Origin: Escherichia phage Ecwhy_1
Sequence record: MH791411.1
Length of the DNA: 64,000 nt
Direction: 5' to 3' (one strand)
The position numbers were made by a program, and so were the translations under genes. The notes beneath the pieces were generated by a model, which did not search any database, was not told where the DNA came from, and was given only the letters and a program-made list of their open reading frames with translations. Positions 56,421 to 62,719 of this stretch are shown piece after piece. Position 1 is the first letter of the stretch. Each line of letters opens with the position of its first letter.

Positions 56421-56639
56421 TTATTTGGAATTATACAAGCAATACAAGTATACCATAGGAGCAAAATGTTCGGTATCAACTAAGTATATTAACTGGGTGT
56501 CATATATACCGTACAAATCTCGAAATTTATCTCTGTACAGCAACAATGACTTATTGTTGTGTGGGTCAACCCAGTACTTTAAGTCATTGTAGTGCAACGT
56601 GTTATTACGGTAACCTGATAATATTTGTTTTTTAGCCAA
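56421..56639 (-). CDS. Hypothetical protein (72 aa)
   Basis: Overlaps the upstream gene by 8 nt. No motif recognised. Confidence 0.55.
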   Translation of the reverse strand: MAKKQILSGYRNNTLHYNDLKYWVDPHNNKSLLLYRDKFRDLYGIYDTQLIYLVDTEHFAPMVYLYCLYNSK

Positions 56640-57009
56640 CTTTTTTACAATTACTTAGTAAATGCATGATGGCATCAGCGGTAAATGGTCCCAGTACTAA
56701 AACTTCTTCTCCATTACCGAAGATACTCAATGGTACAGATTGTTGTCCTGCTAGATATTCGATTTGTTCTAATTCGAAAATGTCATCAGCAGCATAAACA
56801 ACCTGTTCCATTTCATTATCTTTAATCCATGACTGCCAATGTTCTTTAAACTGCTTCGCTTCGTATTCCAGTACATAGTTAGGTGATTCTGGATTGTACT
56901 GATGTAGCATTGTCATACCAGCCATAACCAGTTCTTTTGGTGATGGAGTAGAATCTTTCAGTACTACGATAGCTTGGATAGTTTTAACTTTAACGTTTTG
57001 AGCAGCCAT
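56632..57009 (-). CDS. Hypothetical protein (125 aa) with weak PTH2/DUF2000-fold resemblance
   Basis: The spacing of AIVVLKD...W..W....EQVVYAADDIFELEQIEYLA....VPLSIF...EEVLVLGPFTADAIMHLLSNCKKV mimics peptidyl-tRNA hydrolase 2. The catalytic DAGxT-type residues are not evident. Confidence 0.45.
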   Translation of the reverse strand: MAAQNVKVKTIQAIVVLKDSTPSPKELVMAGMTMLHQYNPESPNYVLEYEAKQFKEHWQSWIKDNEMEQVVYAADDIFELEQIEYLAGQQSVPLSIFGNGEEVLVLGPFTADAIMHLLSNCKKVG

Positions 57010-57349: not shown

Positions 57350-57829
57350 TTATTTTAGAATGTATAAGTGTTTTTCTGCATTAACCAGTCTGTGGTCAAT
57401 GATTTCTTTGATAACGTTCCAGTTACCACCGCCTAAATCGGCTCCAATTTTCGGGAAGTGTACATGGATCTCTTGTGGTTCATTTTTAATGAATTCATTC
57501 ATCGAGTTAAATGCAAGGTCAATCGCATCATAACTTACATACTTCTTACCATCATTACCATAATACTCTTGTGTAATGCAGTTTGCAATAATTAAGTTAT
57601 TATTTGGTGCTGCATAGACAACTTCACCCAATTTCAAACCATTCTGATTGGTATAACGTGTATGATACACATCATATGCCAATTGGTGACGCTTTCTTAA
57701 TTCTTTTGCAAAACCAGAACCCATCTTACCCTGAGCGTTACAACCATGAGCGATAATATGTAATGCAGTTTGATCAGTAGTAACAGTACTGAATAAATCA
57801 AACAGATTACCACAATGTTCATGTATCAT
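57350..57829 (-). CDS. Macro-domain protein (ADP-ribose / Appr-1''-p binding or hydrolase)
   Basis: LHIIAHGCNAQGKMGSGFAKELRKRH is the N-terminal macro signature (h.NC.G.MG.GIA). 159 aa is a single macro-domain size. RBS cGGAGaatataATG. Confidence 0.8.
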   Translation of the reverse strand: MIHEHCGNLFDLFSTVTTDQTALHIIAHGCNAQGKMGSGFAKELRKRHQLAYDVYHTRYTNQNGLKLGEVVYAAPNNNLIIANCITQEYYGNDGKKYVSYDAIDLAFNSMNEFIKNEPQEIHVHFPKIGADLGGGNWNVIKEIIDHRLVNAEKHLYILK

Positions 57830-57840
57830 TATATTCTCCG

Positions 57841-57870
57841 AAAAGAAAGGACTCTGTAATCAGAGTCCTT
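57841..57870 (-). terminator. Rho-independent terminator upstream of the macro gene
   Basis: Minus strand aaggactctg-atta-cagagtcctt followed by tcTTTTcgg. Confidence 0.7.
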
Positions 57871-57880
57871 AATTTATATT

Positions 57881-58123
57881 TTATTCTTCTTCACCGAATC
57901 GAATTTTTTTCAATTCTTTTCGTTGTTTGCGAGCAATGGTACTTTTGTGAAGTCTATTACCACGTTTTGTGTCTTTCGTAATGTACCATGAATCTTCTGG
58001 TGCATTATAATCACAATAACCATCTTCTGTAATCGTCCCTAAGAAAGCAGACTTTTTAGGAATGGATGTTTGAGCTTTAGCAGCGAATTGGCCTTTTGCT
58101 AATTGTTCACGAAAACTGAGCAT
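57881..58123 (-). CDS. Basic hypothetical protein (~80 aa)
   Basis: Track start 58138 is TTG. ATG 58123 (MLSFREQ) follows GGGAGAtactatt. Lys/Arg-rich C-terminus (KSTIARKQRKELKKIRF). Confidence 0.55.
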   Translation of the reverse strand: MLSFREQLAKGQFAAKAQTSIPKKSAFLGTITEDGYCDYNAPEDSWYITKDTKRGNRLHKSTIARKQRKELKKIRFGEEE

Positions 58124-58168
58124 AATAGTATCTCCCAAATTGTTACGAAGAACTTGTGTTCTTCATTA

Positions 58169-58411: not shown

Positions 58412-58659
58412 TAATTCCAGCGACCTTCTTTAAGACCTTCAACGAAACCAGTACAGCCACCTGGAACGTAAACATCGTTTACGAAAATTTGTGGAACCTG
58501 TCGTACTGGCTCACCACATAGTTCAGATAGTTTAGCACCATCAATACCAGCGGTAACAATATCGATAAACTCCATATCAAATTTGTTATTTTCACATACT
58601 GCTTTAGCAGTGTCGCAGAATTTACAACCAGTAGTGCGACCATAAATTTTAACTTTCAT
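58411..58659 (-). CDS. Glutaredoxin (Grx1 / T4 NrdC-like)
   Basis: KIYGRTTGCKFCDTAK (CxxC) and VPQIFVNDVYVPGG parallel E. coli Grx1 FGRSGCPYCVRAK and VPQIFIDQQHIGG (recalled). Confidence 0.8.
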   Translation of the reverse strand: MKVKIYGRTTGCKFCDTAKAVCENNKFDMEFIDIVTAGIDGAKLSELCGEPVRQVPQIFVNDVYVPGGCTGFVEGLKEGRWN

Positions 58660-59062
58660 TTCTTTTCCCTTTATTTCGTTGAAACATTGTAACAGCCTTT
58701 ATTATACTGTTACACATTCGTTCAGTCAAATACTTTTGACAATCTAGTACATCAATGTACATGAACTTATCCAATTCTGGGTGACTTCTACCATATCTGT
58801 TTGTGTAAGTACTTTTACACTCCAACTCTTCTGGTATAGGCTTATCTTTGGCTGTATAGAAAAATAAAACTAAACGTTTCCCCTTTCTATACGATACATC
58901 ACCAAGAAACAGAAGATCATCTTCATCGATTTCATATCCTGTCTCTTCGTAGCATTCACGTACAGCAGCCTCTTTAAATGTTTCTGTACCTTCAGTTTTA
59001 CCTTTAGGTAAGTCCCAGTGATTCTGTCCGTGTTGTATGCCCGATAAGTATCTGACCATCAC
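58649..59062 (-). CDS. Nudix hydrolase (second copy in window)
   Basis: Nudix box PKGKTEGTETFKEAAVRECYEETGYEI. GTG/ATG start with no SD, very close to an extended -10 element. Confidence 0.8.
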   Translation of the reverse strand: MMVRYLSGIQHGQNHWDLPKGKTEGTETFKEAAVRECYEETGYEIDEDDLLFLGDVSYRKGKRLVLFFYTAKDKPIPEELECKSTYTNRYGRSHPELDKFMYIDVLDCQKYLTERMCNSIIKAVTMFQRNKGKRNES

Positions 59063-59168: not shown

Positions 59169-60284
59169 TTAGAACATTTGCTTGATTGCTTCAATACGCA
59201 ATTCAGCAACAAAATCACGAATCTCCGATGTTTGGAGTTCACCATCTTTCACTAACTGCTGAATATCAGGTAATTCAACATCAGTATAACGATCATAAAC
59301 TTTAATAATCAAATCTTCAAGTTCAGAATCAATTTCTTTGTTCAAAATGAAGTTTTCCAGTACTTTGTAAAGGAAATCTTCACCACCATTGTTTTTGATA
59401 TTCATATCCAGTAAGATTTGTCCCATTTCAACTGGGGTCTTCTTACGGAAGGTTTTAATATCTTCACGGAAACGCTTGATGTAATTACTAAACTTAACGT
59501 ACTTAACTGGAACCTTAATGGAACCGTTAAGTACTGAATCATTATTTACTTCTTCATTTTCAAGAAGTACTGTCCATAAGAAATATGGTTTATATTCTTC
59601 TGTACAATTTGCAGCGATAGAATCAATTAATTCCAGACGTTTCTTGGTAACTGGAACTGTAGTAAATGCCTTTTCGTAATAACCAAATTGTACCAGAGTT
59701 TTGATAAACTTGGAAGGGTTTTCTTCAGAAAGTGCTTTTTCGAATTCAACAAAAACACGATCTGGAACTAGATGGTCTAGTTCACCAGTACTAACCATAT
59801 CTTTACACATTGTCATAGTATCATCATGGATTGTAAAGTCGGAGTAACGCGTAGCGAAACGGGCCAAACGTAGAACACGCAATGGATCTTCTTTAAAGTG
59901 TTCTGATACATGACGAAGTACTTTGTTCTTGATATCAGCTTTCCCGCCATAAGGGTCGATGTGAATCTGGAGTACTGGATCATATGCAATACTATTGATT
60001 GTGAGATCACGACGATATAGATCTTGTTCTAGTGTCACACCTTTTGTATTCACTTCGAAGCCACCATATCCAGTACCAGTTTTACGCTCAGTACGGGCTA
60101 ATGCGTGTTCATTACCTTCTGGACTTAGATATACAGGGAAATCCTTACCTACTTGCTTGTATCCAATACTTTGCAAGTATTTAATATCGGATTCGGTAGC
60201 ACCGACAATAACATAATCTTTGTCTTTTGCACGGATACCCATTAAACGGTCACGAACGTAGCCACCAACCAAATACTTTTTCAT
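59169..60284 (-). CDS. cca: tRNA nucleotidyltransferase (CCA-adding enzyme, class II, no HD domain)
   Basis: LVGGYVRDRLMGIRAKDKDYVIVG (GGxVRD...DxD), RRDLTINSIAYD, DPLRVLRLARFATRY. 371 aa. Confidence 0.9.
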   Translation of the reverse strand: MKKYLVGGYVRDRLMGIRAKDKDYVIVGATESDIKYLQSIGYKQVGKDFPVYLSPEGNEHALARTERKTGTGYGGFEVNTKGVTLEQDLYRRDLTINSIAYDPVLQIHIDPYGGKADIKNKVLRHVSEHFKEDPLRVLRLARFATRYSDFTIHDDTMTMCKDMVSTGELDHLVPDRVFVEFEKALSEENPSKFIKTLVQFGYYEKAFTTVPVTKKRLELIDSIAANCTEEYKPYFLWTVLLENEEVNNDSVLNGSIKVPVKYVKFSNYIKRFREDIKTFRKKTPVEMGQILLDMNIKNNGGEDFLYKVLENFILNKEIDSELEDLIIKVYDRYTDVELPDIQQLVKDGELQTSEIRDFVAELRIEAIKQMF

Positions 60285-60419: not shown

Positions 60420-60857
60420 TTAAATTAATCTATCACGTAGACGGTCGTAATATTTTGCATGTATATCTAGTATACACTGAAATGATGGATAGTCAATACT
60501 AAATGTATCATCAATGAACATGTACTGAAGAAGTGTTTCTGGTCCATTATCAACAACTGGTAATGTCCCTTCTTTTTTTGATAGGGTGTGCCACATCAAC
60601 TCACTTTCAATATGGTGAGTTGCGTATGTCAATTCAATCTTACTTTTTCGTAGTAAAATTAACAATTCATCATTGTCATCGAGTGCATTACGAAATTTAA
60701 TACGAACTGTACCCTGGAAATTATTAGTGTACATAACACGATGATGATTGTATGAAATTAAACCACGTCTTTCAGTACTGATTTCATGTTCAGCAAAGTA
60801 CTTTAACGTTTCATTAAATTTTGGAATTTTACTTGCGTCCACCAATGTAATCCTCAT
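60420..60857 (-). CDS. Small paralog-family protein (member 4)
   Basis: C-terminal LLQYMFIDDTFSIDYPSF matches YLQYQFIDDTFGFDFELY of ORF 60829. The N-terminus MRITLVD matches MRTFNID and MRNTLIK if started at ATG 60857 (track start 60863). Confidence 0.65.
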   Translation of the reverse strand: MRITLVDASKIPKFNETLKYFAEHEISTERRGLISYNHHRVMYTNNFQGTVRIKFRNALDDNDELLILLRKSKIELTYATHHIESELMWHTLSKKEGTLPVVDNGPETLLQYMFIDDTFSIDYPSFQCILDIHAKYYDRLRDRLI

Positions 60858-61236
60858 ATACATGATATACGTTCATTATACTATTATATAGTTCAAAGTC
60901 AAATCCAAATGTGTCATCAATGAACTGGTATTGCAGATATTCTTCATATGAAGCATCAATTGGTAATGATCCAGCACGAATATCATCTGATTTAAAATCG
61001 TCAATGTATCTTAATGTTATGTCTTCATCAACAGTAATATCTATCATCAACGTATCGTCACTGTACCAAAGGTTATGTATACGGATGTAAAGTTTCTTAG
61101 CACGATTAAAACTAGATACATTGGTATTGCGATGGAGTTTATCTAAGTTGAAGTAAAAACCAGGCTCGTTTTTACTTATGTTTTTCATATGTTCTGCAAT
61201 CGAATCAATTATATAATCAATGTTGAATGTTCTCAT
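60829..61236 (-). CDS. Small paralog-family protein (member 3)
   Basis: Track start 61242 is TTG. ATG 61236 overlaps the upstream stop (ATGA). See paralog motifs above. Confidence 0.65.
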   Translation of the reverse strand: MRTFNIDYIIDSIAEHMKNISKNEPGFYFNLDKLHRNTNVSSFNRAKKLYIRIHNLWYSDDTLMIDITVDEDITLRYIDDFKSDDIRAGSLPIDASYEEYLQYQFIDDTFGFDFELYNSIMNVYHVYEDYIGGRK

Positions 61237-61418
61237 AAACAAATCTCATAGCGGTTTGTGTTTGGATTGTAGCAATAGGTATCATTAATTTTAACACCAG
61301 GTTTAAGTGTTATTGTTGTTCCTACTTCAGTACTGGGTTCTGCATCACAATAAATCATCACACCAACGCCACAGATTAAAGCTAAGATACAAATAATAGC
61401 ACATATTGTATATTCCAT
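61233..61418 (-). CDS. Small membrane protein (61 aa)
   Basis: MEYTICAIICILALICGVGVMIYC is one hydrophobic helix, followed by a Cys-containing soluble tail. ATG 61418 overlaps the micro-ORF B stop (TGATG); the track start 61436 lies inside micro-ORF B. Confidence 0.55.
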   Translation of the reverse strand: MEYTICAIICILALICGVGVMIYCDAEPSTEVGTTITLKPGVKINDTYCYNPNTNRYEICL

Positions 61419-61543
61419 CACTCCCCCATCAGCCAATCAAAGAGACGTTCCAAGAAGCCATTAGGCTTGTATTCTGGTTCTTTGTTCACGTCGGTTTCTT
61501 GTTCATAAACACCCAAATCTTCTTCAAGTATAATTGTATTCAT
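61418..61543 (-). CDS. Unannotated acidic micro-ORF B (41 aa), paralog of micro-ORF A
   Basis: The ATG overlaps the upstream stop (TAATG). Peptide MNTIILEEDLGVYEQETDVNKEPEYKPNGFLERLFDWLMGE*. The stop overlaps the next ATG (TGATG). Confidence 0.6.
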   Translation of the reverse strand: MNTIILEEDLGVYEQETDVNKEPEYKPNGFLERLFDWLMGE

Positions 61544-61914
61544 TATATATTATACTCTATTATACCATCATCACTTTCACCAGACAACCACTTAATGTAA
61601 TTTACTTTGTAGAAATTAATCAATGCATAAGTGCTGTACTCAATCAACAAGTGATCTCTCAAGAATTCGTCTTGAGCATATCCATCTTCATCCAAATCTG
61701 TTGGAATATCAGTTTCTTTGTCTTGAATGTGTAAAGTTATTGTGTCTTTTGTTATACAAATTGTTATATGATTACAAATAGTAATGATGATTATGCTATA
61801 TGTTCTATTGAAATATATTGTGAAATCTTCATTAATATTATATCTTCGACTTTCTTCATATTTCTGATATGGGTCGAAATGTGATAAATTAACTTTAATT
61901 AATGTATTTCTCAA
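61543..61914 (-). CDS. Small paralog-family protein (member 2, divergent)
   Basis: Probable TTG start at 61914 after GAGGTGtaag, giving (M)RNTLIKVN. The C-terminal DEFLRDHLLIEYSTYALINFY weakly matches the family motif. Confidence 0.5.
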   Translation of the reverse strand: MRNTLIKVNLSHFDPYQKYEESRRYNINEDFTIYFNRTYSIIIITICNHITICITKDTITLHIQDKETDIPTDLDEDGYAQDEFLRDHLLIEYSTYALINFYKVNYIKWLSGESDDGIIEYNI

Positions 61915-61926
61915 CTTACACCTCAA

Positions 61927-62307
61927 TCATATAAAGTAATTATACATTTTATTGTACAATATAAAAAGGTCTTTAACATTATCATAAGTAATATCAGATA
62001 CATCATGAATTAATGATAACTGGAAAAATGATGCTTCGTCTATCTCTACTGGGATTATAACATCATAGTCTTCGTCAATTTTATGGGTGTAGTATTTTAT
62101 GTGATCAGCATTCAACACAAGGTTGTATTTTGTATCATCTTCAATTAATCCGACAAATTGAGATTTTTGATTAATAAAAAATCCAATCCCAACACAACGG
62201 TTATCTGGATATGGATAGTACCATCTATTAATAACTAGGTGTTCAGGTAAGTCCATATCATGTGTTGATATTAAAGATTTTACAATTCCCATCCAGGAAT
62301 AATTCAT
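61927..62307 (-). CDS. Small paralog-family protein (member 1, divergent)
   Basis: The C-terminal EASFFQLSLIHDVSDITYDNV follows the pattern of ..LQY.FIDDTF..D. RBS tatGGAGttttaattATG. Confidence 0.55.
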   Translation of the reverse strand: MNYSWMGIVKSLISTHDMDLPEHLVINRWYYPYPDNRCVGIGFFINQKSQFVGLIEDDTKYNLVLNADHIKYYTHKIDEDYDVIIPVEIDEASFFQLSLIHDVSDITYDNVKDLFILYNKMYNYFI

Positions 62308-62353: not shown

Positions 62354-62382
62354 ATTATATCTTACTCTTCGTCTTCAGTCAA
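62354..62382 (-). promoter_or_regulatory. sigma70-type promoter straddling the hpf stop codon
   Basis: Minus strand TTGACT-gaagacgaagagtaaga-TATAAT (17-nt spacer). The predicted start site falls inside the 5' arm of the terminator hairpin. Confidence 0.55.
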
Positions 62383-62694
62383 GTCTTCTTGAACTGGATG
62401 TTCGGGGTGGTTACGGCGATGCAATTTGATGCTTTTGTCTTTACCTAAGACAGTTTCCATTTTTTCAAATGAATCACCAATTGCTTTGTATAAATCTGCA
62501 TCATCGGCGGTGACAATCTTACCACCTGATGTTAAAGTTACGGAATATTGATTCTTATGCTCTTTCTTCACATGAACACCGATATAAAGTACTGAAGAAT
62601 CACTAAACTTCGTTAGTGCATTTGCTTCTGCATGAATCGCGTCATTGATTGCTGGAGTAATATCAACATTACCTTGGATAACTAAATCTAGCAT
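62362..62694 (-). CDS. hpf: Ribosome-associated inhibitor / hibernation factor (short HPF-RaiA/YfiA family)
   Basis: 110 aa. VDITPAINDAIHAEANALTKF and DADLYKAIGDSFEKMETVLGK parallel recalled E. coli YfiA [21 protein letters not shown] and [21 protein letters not shown]. The acidic C-terminal tail QEDLTEDEE resembles the YfiA EEVEEE tail. Confidence 0.8.
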   Translation of the reverse strand: MLDLVIQGNVDITPAINDAIHAEANALTKFSDSSVLYIGVHVKKEHKNQYSVTLTSGGKIVTADDADLYKAIGDSFEKMETVLGKDKSIKLHRRNHPEHPVQEDLTEDEE

Positions 62695-62719
62695 AATTTA
62701 CCTACCTTTTTTTTTAGTT

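What the first reader, a model, noticed from the sequence alone, without database searches (positions are those of the whole stretch)
57350..57829. Stand-alone macro-domain protein as a candidate counter-defence enzyme
The 159-aa protein carries the HGCNAQGKMGSGFA signature and is insulated by its own upstream terminator and SD. Macro domains hydrolyse ADP-ribose adducts on proteins, DNA (the DarG antitoxin reverses DarT) and RNA, or degrade Appr-1''-p and O-acetyl-ADP-ribose. A phage-encoded copy is a plausible antidote to ADP-ribosylating defence toxins or to ADP-ribose-derived immune signals.
Basis: partly seen in the sequence, partly recalled or inferred. Interest (0 to 1): 0.5.

Follow-up and report, generated by a model that had tools for sequence, protein, structure and literature searches.

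The report
Phage macro-domain ADP-ribose remover (AdfM-like)
This is a small ADP-ribose-removing enzyme of a giant E. coli phage, related to a phage T4 protein recently shown to defeat the bacterial DarTG2 DNA-ADP-ribosylating defence, so it is a likely but untested counter-defence gene of an already described kind.

Summary
ORF 57350-57829 (-) encodes a 159-aa stand-alone macro domain with the HGCNAQGKMGSGFA loop. A 10-bp hairpin with a T-tract and a GGAG Shine-Dalgarno site precede it.

The window is an Asteriusvirus-type jumbo coliphage, 99.7% identical to phage Turkey3. The 121Q orthologue is already annotated as a macro-domain protein.

Profile and fold searches place the protein in the ALC1-like macro class. 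Its nearest relatives are Bacteroides BT1257 and Streptomyces SCO6735, ahead of Poa1p, DarG and TARG1. At the catalytic Lys of DarG/TARG1 it has an invariant Gln87, matching the essential Gln85 of SCO6735, which cleaves thymidine-linked ADP-ribose from DNA and rescues DarT toxicity.

It is homologous to T4 Tk.4/AdfM (hhalign 99.3%), whose knockout sensitises T4 to DarTG2. It is more distant from the Lys-type PhiKZ AdfM.

The most likely function is therefore reversal of DarT2 DNA ADP-ribosylation. This is inferred from homology and was not tested on this protein.

Two caveats:
- A clade-specific Asp131 replaces a loop Gly whose Glu mutant cripples SCO6735.
- No promoter is seen between the hairpin and the ATG.

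One extra finding: the gene is a recombination patch, 71% amino-acid identity to phage fEgEco12 while the flanking genes are 99-100% identical.

Verdict: a new member of a known kind, of modest interest.

The parts
57350..57829 (-). CDS for a 159-aa stand-alone macro-domain protein of the ALC1-like class, BT1257/SCO6735-like Gln type. It is homologous to T4 Tk.4/AdfM.
   Evidence: ORF. PHROG 335 E 1.3e-44. Profile against PDB: BT1257 4e-26, SCO6735 5e-19, Poa1p 8e-15, DarG 1.5e-12, TARG1 1.7e-9. AF2 pLDDT 93.9 and Foldseek TM 0.83 to 2FG1. hhalign against T4 Tk.4: 99.3%, E 1.5e-20.
57836..57839 (-). Shine-Dalgarno-like GGAG, 6 nt upstream of the ATG.
   Evidence: Read directly from the sequence.
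57847..57870 (-). 10-bp G+C-rich hairpin followed by TCTTTTCGGA. It lies in the 51-nt gap between the stop codon of ORF 57881-58138 and the macro ATG. It is terminator-like for the upstream gene, or possibly a 5'-UTR stem.
   Evidence: Terminator scan. Fold -16 kcal/mol, z -3.2, no shuffle out of 200 folds as well. The stem is conserved in 121Q and fEgEco12. TATAAAT at 57878-57872 abuts it.
57467..57815 (-). Recombination (allele-replacement) patch inside the macro gene, covering codons ~5-121. It is about 70-80% identical to phage fEgEco12, while roughly 9 kb to the left and 2.6 kb to the right are 99-100% identical.
   Evidence: Sliding-window identity and alignment. Per-gene statistics: macro 0.71 aa identity with dN/dS 0.33; eleven neighbouring genes 0.99-1.00. 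The window allele is 71-75% identical to all sequenced Asteriusvirus alleles, which are 83-92% identical to each other.

Best explanation
The gene encodes an AdfM-type orphan 'antitoxin': a soluble, single-domain macro hydrolase made inside the infected cell. It removes ADP-ribose that the host toxin DarT2 attaches to thymidine in single-stranded phage DNA (TNTC motifs), so that replication, transcription and packaging can proceed.

Mechanistically it would work like SCO6735 rather than DarG/TARG1:
- There is no nucleophilic or catalytic lysine.
- Gln87, held in position by Asn31, binds the ring oxygen of the distal ribose.
- A backbone-positioned water at the His28-Gly29 turn protonates the thymine leaving group.
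- The long Gln87-to-Tyr100 loop, with Lys95 and Lys96, clamps the ssDNA.
- The free ADP-ribose released may then be degraded by the NudE-like Nudix protein encoded three genes upstream.

What is shown: the fold, the class, the conserved residues, and homology to T4 AdfM and SCO6735.

What is inferred: the substrate, the in vivo role and the Nudix coupling.
For: 1. Class. The family profile ranks BT1257 (4e-26) above SCO6735 (5e-19), Poa1p (8e-15), T. aquaticus DarG (1.5e-12), M. tuberculosis DarG (2.5e-11) and TARG1 (1.7e-9). MacroD and viral nsP3 macros are at E >0.06. Foldseek gives the same set of top hits, in slightly different order.

2. Residues. Gln87 is invariant in 122/122 homologues, including T4 Tk.4. 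His28, Gly29, Cys30, Asn31, Thr86, Pro126 and Gly129 are also invariant. Gln87 aligns with SCO6735 Gln85. SCO6735 Q85A is dead, N27S is nearly dead, and the enzyme cleaves dT-ADPr DNA and rescues E. coli from DarT (PMC9411070).

3. Homologue genetics. T4 tk.4 (AdfM) was the only hit in a transposon screen on DarTG2, and a clean knockout sensitises T4 to DarTG2. The window protein matches Tk.4 at BLASTP E 1e-13 with 32% identity, and at hhalign 99.3%. Both belong to PHROG 335, and their PADLOC DarG scores are alike at 34.6 and 36.0 bits.

4. PhiKZ AdfM, also in PHROG 335, removes DarT2 marks in vitro; mutating its conserved Asn reduces activity.

5. E. coli, the host species, carries DarTG (EPEC system, PMC7003065 abstract).

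6. Evolution. The active-site loops are conserved and the surface is variable. dN/dS is 0.30-0.33 and the gene has undergone allele replacement, as is common for conflict genes.

7. The Nudix neighbour is 40% identical to T4 NudE, which the RefSeq record notes as active on ADP-ribose.
Against: - No experiment exists on this protein or on any Asteriusvirus orthologue. I found no paper that discusses the Asteriusvirus macro protein, either in a term search or in the three Asteriusvirus papers I checked.
- For T4 AdfM itself only genetics is reported; its enzymology is assumed.
- Identity to T4 Tk.4 is only 32%, and the mobile loop differs: 14 residues here against 10 in Tk.4.
- Asp131 occupies the position of SCO6735 Gly128, and G128E causes a substantial loss of activity. 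The jumbo-phage clade has D/A/E/Y at this position, whereas distant homologues, Tk.4, BT1257 and SCO6735 have Gly.
- SCO6735 Lys34 and Lys89 are not conserved in place (Ser38 and Gly91); only Lys95 aligns with Lys93.
- Poa1p, an ADP-ribose-1''-phosphate phosphatase, is nearly as close structurally.
- The gene sits next to virion and tRNA-related genes, not in an obvious early anti-defence cluster.
Confidence: 0.55

Rival explanations
1. The protein is a de-ADP-ribosylase for another macromolecular target. Candidates are Glu/Asp-linked protein ADP-ribose, RNA ADP-ribosylation by toxins such as CmdT or Tpt1-like enzymes, or marks written by phage- or host-encoded ADP-ribosyltransferases. Anti-DarT2 activity would then be absent or secondary.
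For: - SCO6735, the closest characterised relative, also removes protein ADP-ribose.
- The discussion of one paper credits SCO6735 with activity on RNA phosphate ends (PMC11833690).
- The clade-specific Asp131 and the 14-residue loop could signal altered specificity.
Against: - The results section of the same paper reports SCO6735 as inactive on 5'-phosphate and on 2'-OH RNA/DNA ADP-ribose.
- The T4 homologue gave a phenotype specific to DarTG2.
- No ADP-ribosyltransferase domain was found in the ten neighbouring ORFs scanned with Pfam. The rest of the genome was not scanned.
Confidence: 0.2
2. The protein processes soluble ADP-ribose derivatives. It could be an ADP-ribose-1''-phosphate phosphatase or O-acetyl-ADP-ribose deacetylase that clears by-products of RNA repair, or it could destroy ADP-ribose-derived toxins or immune signals. 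Aravind and colleagues proposed this for most phage macro domains.
For: - Poa1p is the third-best solved relative (profile E 8e-15, TM 0.74-0.76).
- Poa1p shares the H-x-C-N motif.
- The T4 and 121Q records carry 'A1pp phosphatase / Appr-1-p processing' labels.
- A CCA-adding tRNA repair enzyme and a NudE-like Nudix lie within 2.5 kb.
- PMC9503650 argues for low-molecular-weight substrates.
Against: - Poa1p has Ser where this family has the invariant Gln87. The Gln is the hallmark of the DNA-active SCO6735 subclass.
- The T4 homologue's phenotype is anti-DarTG2.
- No tRNA genes are found in the window.
- No Tpt1/KptA domain was found among the neighbours scanned.
- The database labels are inherited names, not tests.
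Confidence: 0.15
3. The protein is a catalytically impaired ADP-ribose binder. It would act as a sponge, or inhibit DarT by contact, because the second Gly of the diphosphate-binding loop is replaced by Asp131.
For: - G128E at the equivalent SCO6735 position causes a substantial loss of activity.
- The jumbo-phage clade tolerates D/A/E/Y at this position.
- Catalytically dead SCO6735 still inhibits DarT by interaction.
Against: - All other active-site residues are invariant across 122 sequences.
- dN/dS is about 0.3, which indicates purifying selection. Such conservation of Gln87, Asn31 and His28 is not needed for binding alone.
- The loop is modelled with reasonable confidence: the 10-residue block 131-140 has mean pLDDT 86.
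Confidence: 0.07

Closest known systems
T4 Tk.4 = AdfM (anti-DarT factor macro), bioRxiv 10.1101/2025.11.20.689424
   Same: - A stand-alone phage macro protein of ~155-159 aa in PHROG 335.
- The same motifs: HGCN, MGSG, TQ (Gln type) and P-[KR]-IGA-x-[LI]-G-x-GNW.
- Its best solved relative is also BT1257.
- hhalign 99.3%, E 1.5e-20.
   Different: - Only 32% identity.
- Tk.4 has a 10-residue loop after the Gln, against 14 here, and lacks Lys95 and Lys96.
- Tk.4 keeps Gly where this protein has Asp131.
- The genomic neighbourhood differs: tk/vs/regB in T4, neck/Nudix/CCA here.
Streptomyces coelicolor SCO6735 (PDB 5E3B) and Bacteroides BT1257 (PDB 2FG1/2AFC), a subclass of ALC1-like macrodomains
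   Same: - The closest solved structures: E 1.3e-15 and 2.3e-10 for the single sequence; 4e-26 and 5e-19 for the profile; TM 0.83 and 0.76.
- Gln replaces the catalytic Lys.
- The Asn and His equivalents are conserved.
- A long lysine-bearing mobile loop is present (PMC9411070).
   Different: - Those proteins are bacterial chromosomal genes; SCO6735 is DNA-damage induced.
- Identity is 25-30%.
- Val25 corresponds to Gly29, Lys34 to Ser38, Lys89 to Gly91 and Gly128 to Asp131.
- BT1257 has no reported activity in what I read.
Chimallivirus AdfM (PhiKZ gp104), PMC13309987
   Same: - A phage-encoded stand-alone macro protein in PHROG 335.
- It counters DarTG2 by removing ADP-ribose from DNA.
- The catalytic-site Asn is conserved.
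   Different: - gp104 is a DarG-type Lys enzyme (FPTKDNWR). Its best PDB hit is M. tuberculosis DarG at 9e-25, and its PADLOC DarG score is 132.9 bits against 34.6 here.
- Identity to the window protein is 19%.
- gp104 is imported into a phage nucleus, which is described there for chimalliviruses and was not examined for this phage.
DarG antitoxin of DarTG2 (PDB 5M31/5M3E/5M3I)
   Same: The same macro class and the same likely substrate, thymidine-linked ADP-ribose on ssDNA. Profile E values are 1.5e-12 and 2.5e-11.
   Different: - The catalytic Lys80 is replaced by Gln.
- There is no C-terminal DarT-binding domain: 159 aa against a 338-position model.
- There is no adjacent darT gene.
- NCBIfam score is 26.6 bits against a 250-bit cut-off.
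Yeast Poa1p ADP-ribose-1''-phosphate phosphatase (PDB 6LFQ-6LFU) and human TARG1 (4J5Q-S)
   Same: The same ALC1-like fold. Poa1p shares the H-x-C-N motif. TM scores are 0.73-0.76.
   Different: Poa1p has Ser at the Gln87 position. The TARG1 Lys84/Asp125 dyad is absent: the window protein has Gln87, which aligns with SCO6735 Gln85, the residue equivalent to TARG1 Lys84, and SCO6735 has neither residue of the dyad.

Membership tests
Macro domain superfamily (Pfam PF01661) | Three-layer alpha/beta/alpha macro fold. | tested here: met
   The AF2 model has pLDDT 93.9 and pTM 0.90. All top Foldseek hits are macro domains, with TM 0.83 to 2FG1.
Macro domain superfamily (Pfam PF01661) | Score above the Pfam gathering threshold. 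| tested here: not met
   17.9 bits against a 22-bit cut-off, E 0.0031, aligned over 115 of 118 profile positions. Many homologues at 40-65% identity do carry PF01661.
ALC1-like class, SCO6735/BT1257 (Gln-type) subclass | Closest profile and fold relatives are BT1257 and SCO6735 rather than MacroD or viral macros. | tested here: met
   Profile E values are 4e-26 and 5e-19, against >0.06 for nsP3-type macros. Foldseek ranks BT1257 (2FG1/2AFC) 1st and 2nd and SCO6735 (5E3B) 5th.
ALC1-like class, SCO6735/BT1257 (Gln-type) subclass | Gln at the position of TARG1 Lys84 / DarG Lys80 (SCO6735 Gln85, essential). | tested here: met
   Gln87 aligns with Gln85 and is invariant in 122/122 homologues. The essentiality of Gln85 comes from PMC9411070.
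ALC1-like class, SCO6735/BT1257 (Gln-type) subclass | Asn27 and His24 equivalents in the H-x-C-N turn. | tested here: met
   His28 and Asn31 are invariant. Val25 corresponds to Gly29, but the proposed role of Val25 is carried by its backbone.
ALC1-like class, SCO6735/BT1257 (Gln-type) subclass | Extended mobile loop with lysines after the Gln. | tested here: met
   Gln87 to Tyr100 spans 14 residues in 116 of 122 homologues, and Lys95 and Lys96 are present. Lys95 aligns with SCO6735 Lys93, but Lys89 aligns with Gly91.
ALC1-like class, SCO6735/BT1257 (Gln-type) subclass | Conserved Gly128 in the diphosphate-binding loop. | tested here: not met
   The position is Asp131 here. The jumbo-phage clade has D/A/E/Y, whereas distant homologues, Tk.4, BT1257, SCO6735 and DarG have Gly. 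G128E impairs SCO6735.
ALC1-like class, SCO6735/BT1257 (Gln-type) subclass | Hydrolysis of thymidine-linked ADP-ribose on ssDNA. | not testable with these tools
   This requires a biochemical assay.
AdfM (phage anti-DarT factor, macro type) | Stand-alone phage-encoded macro protein homologous to T4 Tk.4. | tested here: met
   BLASTP E 1e-13 with 32% identity over 122 aa. hhalign 99.3%. Same PHROG 335.
AdfM (phage anti-DarT factor, macro type) | Protects the phage from DarTG2 / relieves DarT2 toxicity. | not testable with these tools
   This is known only for T4 Tk.4 (genetics) and PhiKZ/PhiPA3 AdfM.
DarG antitoxin (DarTG2) | Catalytic Lys80 in the P-T-K motif. | tested here: not met
   The motif is I-T-Q here, against P-T-K in both DarG structures and in PhiKZ gp104.
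DarG antitoxin (DarTG2) | C-terminal DarT-binding domain and an adjacent darT toxin gene. | tested here: not met
   The protein is 159 aa and matches positions 20-139 of a 338-position model, at 26.6 bits against a 250-bit cut-off. The four adjacent small ORFs, two on each side, have no Pfam domain.
TARG1 | Lys84/Asp125 catalytic dyad. | tested here: not met
   Gln87 aligns with SCO6735 Gln85, the residue equivalent to TARG1 Lys84, and SCO6735 lacks both dyad residues. The Asp125 equivalent is Gly133 by my own reading of the loop, using the TARG1 sequence recalled from memory. Profile E is 1.7e-9.
Poa1p-type ADP-ribose-1''-phosphate phosphatase | Sequence and fold similarity, with the H-x-C-N motif. 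| tested here: inconclusive
   Profile E 8e-15 and TM ~0.75. His28 aligns with the Poa1p His, but Poa1p has Ser at the Gln87 position. Activity cannot be tested here.
MacroD-type / viral nsP3 macro hydrolases | Profile-level sequence similarity. | tested here: not met
   All such PDB chains score E >0.06 with the family profile. They appear only as lower-ranked fold matches with TM 0.65-0.70.

The most novel reading that the evidence does not exclude
The jumbo-phage clade has retuned the enzyme. Its features are Asp/Ala/Glu at loop position 131, a 14-residue lysine-bearing loop, hypervariable surface helices, and gene-confined allele swapping between otherwise identical genomes. On this reading, either the enzyme targets an ADP-ribose linkage other than DarT2's thymidine mark (for example CmdT-type adenine marks on mRNA, or an undescribed toxin), or it is escaping a host factor that senses or inhibits phage macro proteins. 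The alleles would then differ in which defences they neutralise.
Probability: 0.1. Interest if true: 0.6.

Novelty: new member of a known kind. Interest (0 to 1): 0.25.

Why it matters
If the assignment is right, Asteriusvirus-type jumbo coliphages carry a Gln-type AdfM. Several of these phages are being considered for therapy against APEC and UPEC, and an AdfM would help predict their host range on DarTG2-positive E. coli.

The analysis also makes a point that the two AdfM papers I read do not state. 'AdfM' covers two mechanistically different macro lineages: the Lys-type, DarG-like enzymes of chimalliviruses, and the Gln-type, SCO6735/BT1257-like enzymes of T4 and of this phage.

The gene-confined allele replacement offers natural variants for testing specificity. 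None of this would change the field's picture; it extends it.

Tried and rejected
- DarG membership was rejected. The NCBIfam score is 26.6 bits against a 250-bit cut-off, the protein has Gln rather than Lys, there is no second domain, and there is no darT gene.
- MacroD and viral macro membership was rejected because profile E values are >0.06.
- A weak Pfam Peptidase_M16_C hit (16.9 bits, below its cut-off) and an NCBIfam phosphomevalonate-kinase hit (12 bits) were dismissed as noise.
- I looked for a linked ADP-ribosyltransferase, Tpt1/KptA or tRNA genes nearby. Pfam on ten flanking ORFs gave only Nudix, HPF and lysozyme/LysM, and ARAGORN found no tRNA in the window. The whole ~360-kb genome was not scanned.
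- The 'peptidyl-tRNA hydrolase' label on neighbour 56632-57009 in related records has no Pfam or NCBIfam support, so I did not use it to argue for a tRNA-repair context.
- I tested whether the macro protein is packaged in virions. The phAPEC6 orthologue gp283c is not in the published virion MS list. This is weak negative evidence.
- I tested for positive selection. dN/dS is 0.30-0.33, so there is no gene-wide signal; the pattern is relaxed or fast evolution plus recombination.
- A T4-type late promoter (TATAAATA) upstream of the gene is absent; only a 7-mer TATAAAT is present.
- A term search and three Asteriusvirus papers (phAPEC6, fEgEco12, Sharanji) turned up no discussion of the macro gene.
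Full report
**Observation**

The minus-strand ORF 57350..57829 starts with ATG and encodes 159 aa containing IAHGCNAQGKMGSGFAKEL. The intergenic gap upstream is 51 nt and has three features:
- A 10-bp hairpin with 5 G-C pairs lies at 57870-57847, followed by TCTTTTCGGA. It folds at -16 kcal/mol with z = -3.2, and none of 200 shuffles folds as well.
- GGAG lies at 57839-57836, 6 nt before the ATG.
- The hairpin stem is conserved in phages fEgEco12 and 121Q, and only the loop differs in 121Q.

'Insulated' is an interpretation. No sigma-70-like promoter fits in the 17 nt between the hairpin and the ATG. The gene must therefore be read through the hairpin, or be transcribed from a start just upstream. 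A TATAAAT heptamer abuts the stem, in which case the hairpin would be a 5'-UTR structure. I could not decide between these.

**Source and prior annotation**

The region is 99.7% identical to Escherichia phage Turkey3, about 97% to fEgEco12, vB_Ec-M-J and WPEC3, and 85% to 121Q and PBECO4, which belong to the genus Asteriusvirus (genomes of ~350-385 kb).

The orthologue in RefSeq 121Q, gp544, is already named 'macro domain-containing protein / Appr-1-p processing domain protein'. Other records call it 'phosphatase' or 'hypothetical'.

The gene lies on the same strand as, and between, a block of CCA-adding enzyme, NudE-like Nudix, glutaredoxin and small ORFs on one side, and the neck, sheath and tube genes on the other.

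**What it is**

Pfam Macro scores only 17.9 bits, below the 22-bit cut-off, but the assignment is secure on other evidence:
- PHROG 335: E 1.3e-44.
- 329 homologues in the protein collection.
- tblastn hits in 2014 phage records, including T4-like 'tk.4' genes.
- An AlphaFold2 model with pLDDT 93.9, whose best solved matches are all macro domains.

A profile of 69 homologues gives the following order against solved structures:

| Solved structure | Profile E-value |
|---|---|
| BT1257 | 4e-26 |
| SCO6735 | 5e-19 |
| Poa1p | 8e-15 |
| T. aquaticus DarG | 1.5e-12 |
| M. tuberculosis DarG | 2.5e-11 |
| TARG1 | 1.7e-9 |
| ALC1 | 0.015 |
| MacroD / viral nsP3 macros | >0.06 |

This is the ALC1-like class, and within it the BT1257/SCO6735 subclass.

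**Catalytic residues**

- In SCO6735 the catalytic Lys of TARG1 (K84) and DarG (K80) is replaced by Gln85. Q85A abolishes activity and N27S nearly does. The enzyme cleaves thymidine-linked ADP-ribose from DNA, inhibits DarT by contact, and rescues E. coli and S. coelicolor from DarT (PMC9411070).
- Here Gln87 aligns with Gln85 and is invariant in 122 of 122 family members. His28, Gly29, Cys30, Asn31, Thr86, Pro126 and Gly129 are also invariant.
- The loop after the Gln is long (14 residues) and carries Lys95 and Lys96, as in the SCO6735 subclass.
- Poa1p has Ser at the Gln position.
- DarG and PhiKZ gp104 have P-T-K at this position.

It carries the residues of one characterised hydrolytic class.

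One deviation remains. Asp131 occupies the position of SCO6735 Gly128, and the G128E mutant loses much of its activity. Non-Gly residues (D, A, E, Y) are the rule in the jumbo-phage clade, that is homologues with at least 50% identity. Gly is the rule in more distant homologues, T4 Tk.4, BT1257, SCO6735 and DarG. I cannot tell what this does.

**Link to experimentally characterised phage proteins**

Two recent papers give the phage context.
- A transposon screen in T4 found tk.4 as the single gene required on a DarTG2-expressing host. A clean knockout became sensitive, and the gene was named adfM. Its enzymology was inferred, not shown (bioRxiv 10.1101/2025.11.20.689424).
- In chimalliviruses, PhiKZ gp104 (also named AdfM) removes DarT2-placed ADP-ribose from DNA in vitro, relieves DarT2 toxicity, and is needed on DarTG2 hosts (PMC13309987).

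I fetched both proteins and compared them with the window protein.

| Comparison | T4 Tk.4 | PhiKZ gp104 |
|---|---|---|
| BLASTP against the window protein | E 1e-13, 32% identity | 19% identity |
| hhalign against the family profile | 99.3%, E 1.5e-20 | 97.9% |
| Best solved relative | BT1257 | M. tuberculosis DarG, 9e-25 |
| PADLOC DarG score (window protein 34.6 bits) | 36.0 bits | 132.9 bits |
| Residue type at the catalytic position | Gln, motifs H-G-C-N and T-Q | Lys, DarG-type |

All three fall in PHROG 335. The window protein is thus a Gln-type relative of T4 AdfM, not a DarG-type protein.

**Most likely mechanism**

I put confidence at about 0.55. The protein is made in the infected cell. 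The phAPEC6 orthologue gp283c is absent from the published virion proteome. It removes ADP-ribose from thymidines that DarT2 modifies on single-stranded phage DNA. It would use the SCO6735-type mechanism: a water molecule does the chemistry, Gln87 and Asn31 position the distal ribose, and the lysine-bearing loop holds the DNA.

E. coli carries DarTG systems (PMC7003065 abstract). The released ADP-ribose could be hydrolysed by the Nudix protein at 58649-59062, which is 40% identical to T4 NudE; the RefSeq record notes T4 NudE as active on ADP-ribose.

The fold, class, residues and homology are shown. The substrate, the in vivo role and the Nudix coupling are inferred.

**Rival explanations**

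- *Another macromolecular target (about 0.2).* SCO6735 also acts on protein ADP-ribose. Reports on its RNA activity are inconsistent within one paper.
- *Soluble ADP-ribose derivatives such as ADP-ribose-1''-phosphate (about 0.15).* This is favoured by the closeness of Poa1p and by the argument of PMC9503650. Against it are the Ser/Gln difference and the T4 phenotype.
- *An impaired binder (about 0.07).* This rests on Asp131. Against it are the invariance of the other active-site residues and dN/dS of about 0.3.

**An additional finding: allele replacement**

Compared with fEgEco12, the window is 99-100% identical for about 9 kb to the left and 2.6 kb to the right of the gene. Identity falls to 70-80% between about 57467 and 57815, inside the macro ORF.
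- At protein level the macro is 71% identical, while eleven neighbouring genes are 99-100% identical.
- The window allele, shared only with Turkey3 and a few metagenomic contigs, is 71-75% identical to every other sequenced Asteriusvirus allele. Those alleles are 83-92% identical to each other.
- Variation falls in three stretches (about residues 11-23, 46-79 and 104-121), while the active-site loops are fixed.
- dN/dS is 0.30-0.33, so there is no gene-wide positive selection.

This looks like allele replacement by recombination from an unsampled relative. Such exchange is common for genes engaged with host defences, but it is not proof of that role. Two more such patches lie at 60573-60972 and 62555-63154.

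**Comparison with known families, and novelty**

The protein works like, and belongs with, the Gln-type ALC1-like macro hydrolases (SCO6735/BT1257) and the T4 AdfM family. It fails the defining tests for the other candidates:
- DarG: no catalytic Lys, no second domain, no darT gene, and a score below the family cut-off.
- TARG1: no Lys/Asp dyad.
- MacroD-type macros: no profile-level similarity.

The gene was already annotated as a macro domain, and the counter-defence role of phage macro proteins has been published for homologues. I therefore rate it a new member of a known kind, interest 0.25.

The small new points are:
- AdfM proteins come in two mechanistic types, Gln and Lys.
- The jumbo-phage clade has a clade-specific Asp131.
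- The gene shows allele replacement confined to the macro ORF.

Noticed in passing
window 60573-60972 and 62555-63154: There are two further patches of 66-87% identity to phage fEgEco12 within otherwise 99-100% identical sequence. The first covers ORF 60420-60863 (-) (147 aa, no Pfam hit, 76% aa identity to fEgEco12 but 92% to 121Q). The second spans the start of the HPF/RaiA homologue and the 3' part of the LysM-lysozyme gene. They look like additional recombination cassettes.
   Followed up: partly
window 61370-61969: This ~600-bp segment is present here and in fEgEco12 but has no counterpart in 121Q (identity 0-0.2 in the alignment). It contains ORF 61543-61926 (-) and appears to be an indel between Asteriusvirus lineages.
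   Followed up: no
whole window, both strands: The T4 late-promoter octamer TATAAATA is completely absent from 64 kb that is largely virion genes: 0 found against 7.0 +/- 2.8 expected from shuffles. This could reflect avoidance or a different late-promoter consensus.
   Followed up: no
window 58649-59062 (-): A Nudix hydrolase three genes upstream of the macro gene is 40% identical to T4 NudE (E 3e-17). The T4 RefSeq record notes NudE as active on ADP-ribose. It may form a disposal pair with the macro enzyme.
   Followed up: partly
window 56632-57009 (-): This ORF is labelled peptidyl-tRNA or aminoacyl-tRNA hydrolase in the Turkey3 and fEgEco12 records, but it has no Pfam or NCBIfam match at the thresholds used. 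The label looks unsupported.
   Followed up: partly
window 62362-62694 (-): The phage encodes a homologue of the ribosome hibernation factor HPF/RaiA (Pfam Ribosomal_S30AE, E 7e-11). It sits next to a LysM-lysozyme at 62720-63673.
   Followed up: no
window 59169-60284 (-): This CCA-adding tRNA nucleotidyltransferase (371 aa) matches only positions 1-204 of the 409-position multifunctional CCA/repair model. The C-terminal half is divergent or of another type. ARAGORN found no tRNA gene anywhere in the window.
   Followed up: no
window 57872-57878 (-): A TATAAAT heptamer directly abuts the 5' side of the hairpin upstream of the macro gene. The hairpin could therefore be a 5'-UTR stem of a macro transcript rather than a terminator.
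   Followed up: no
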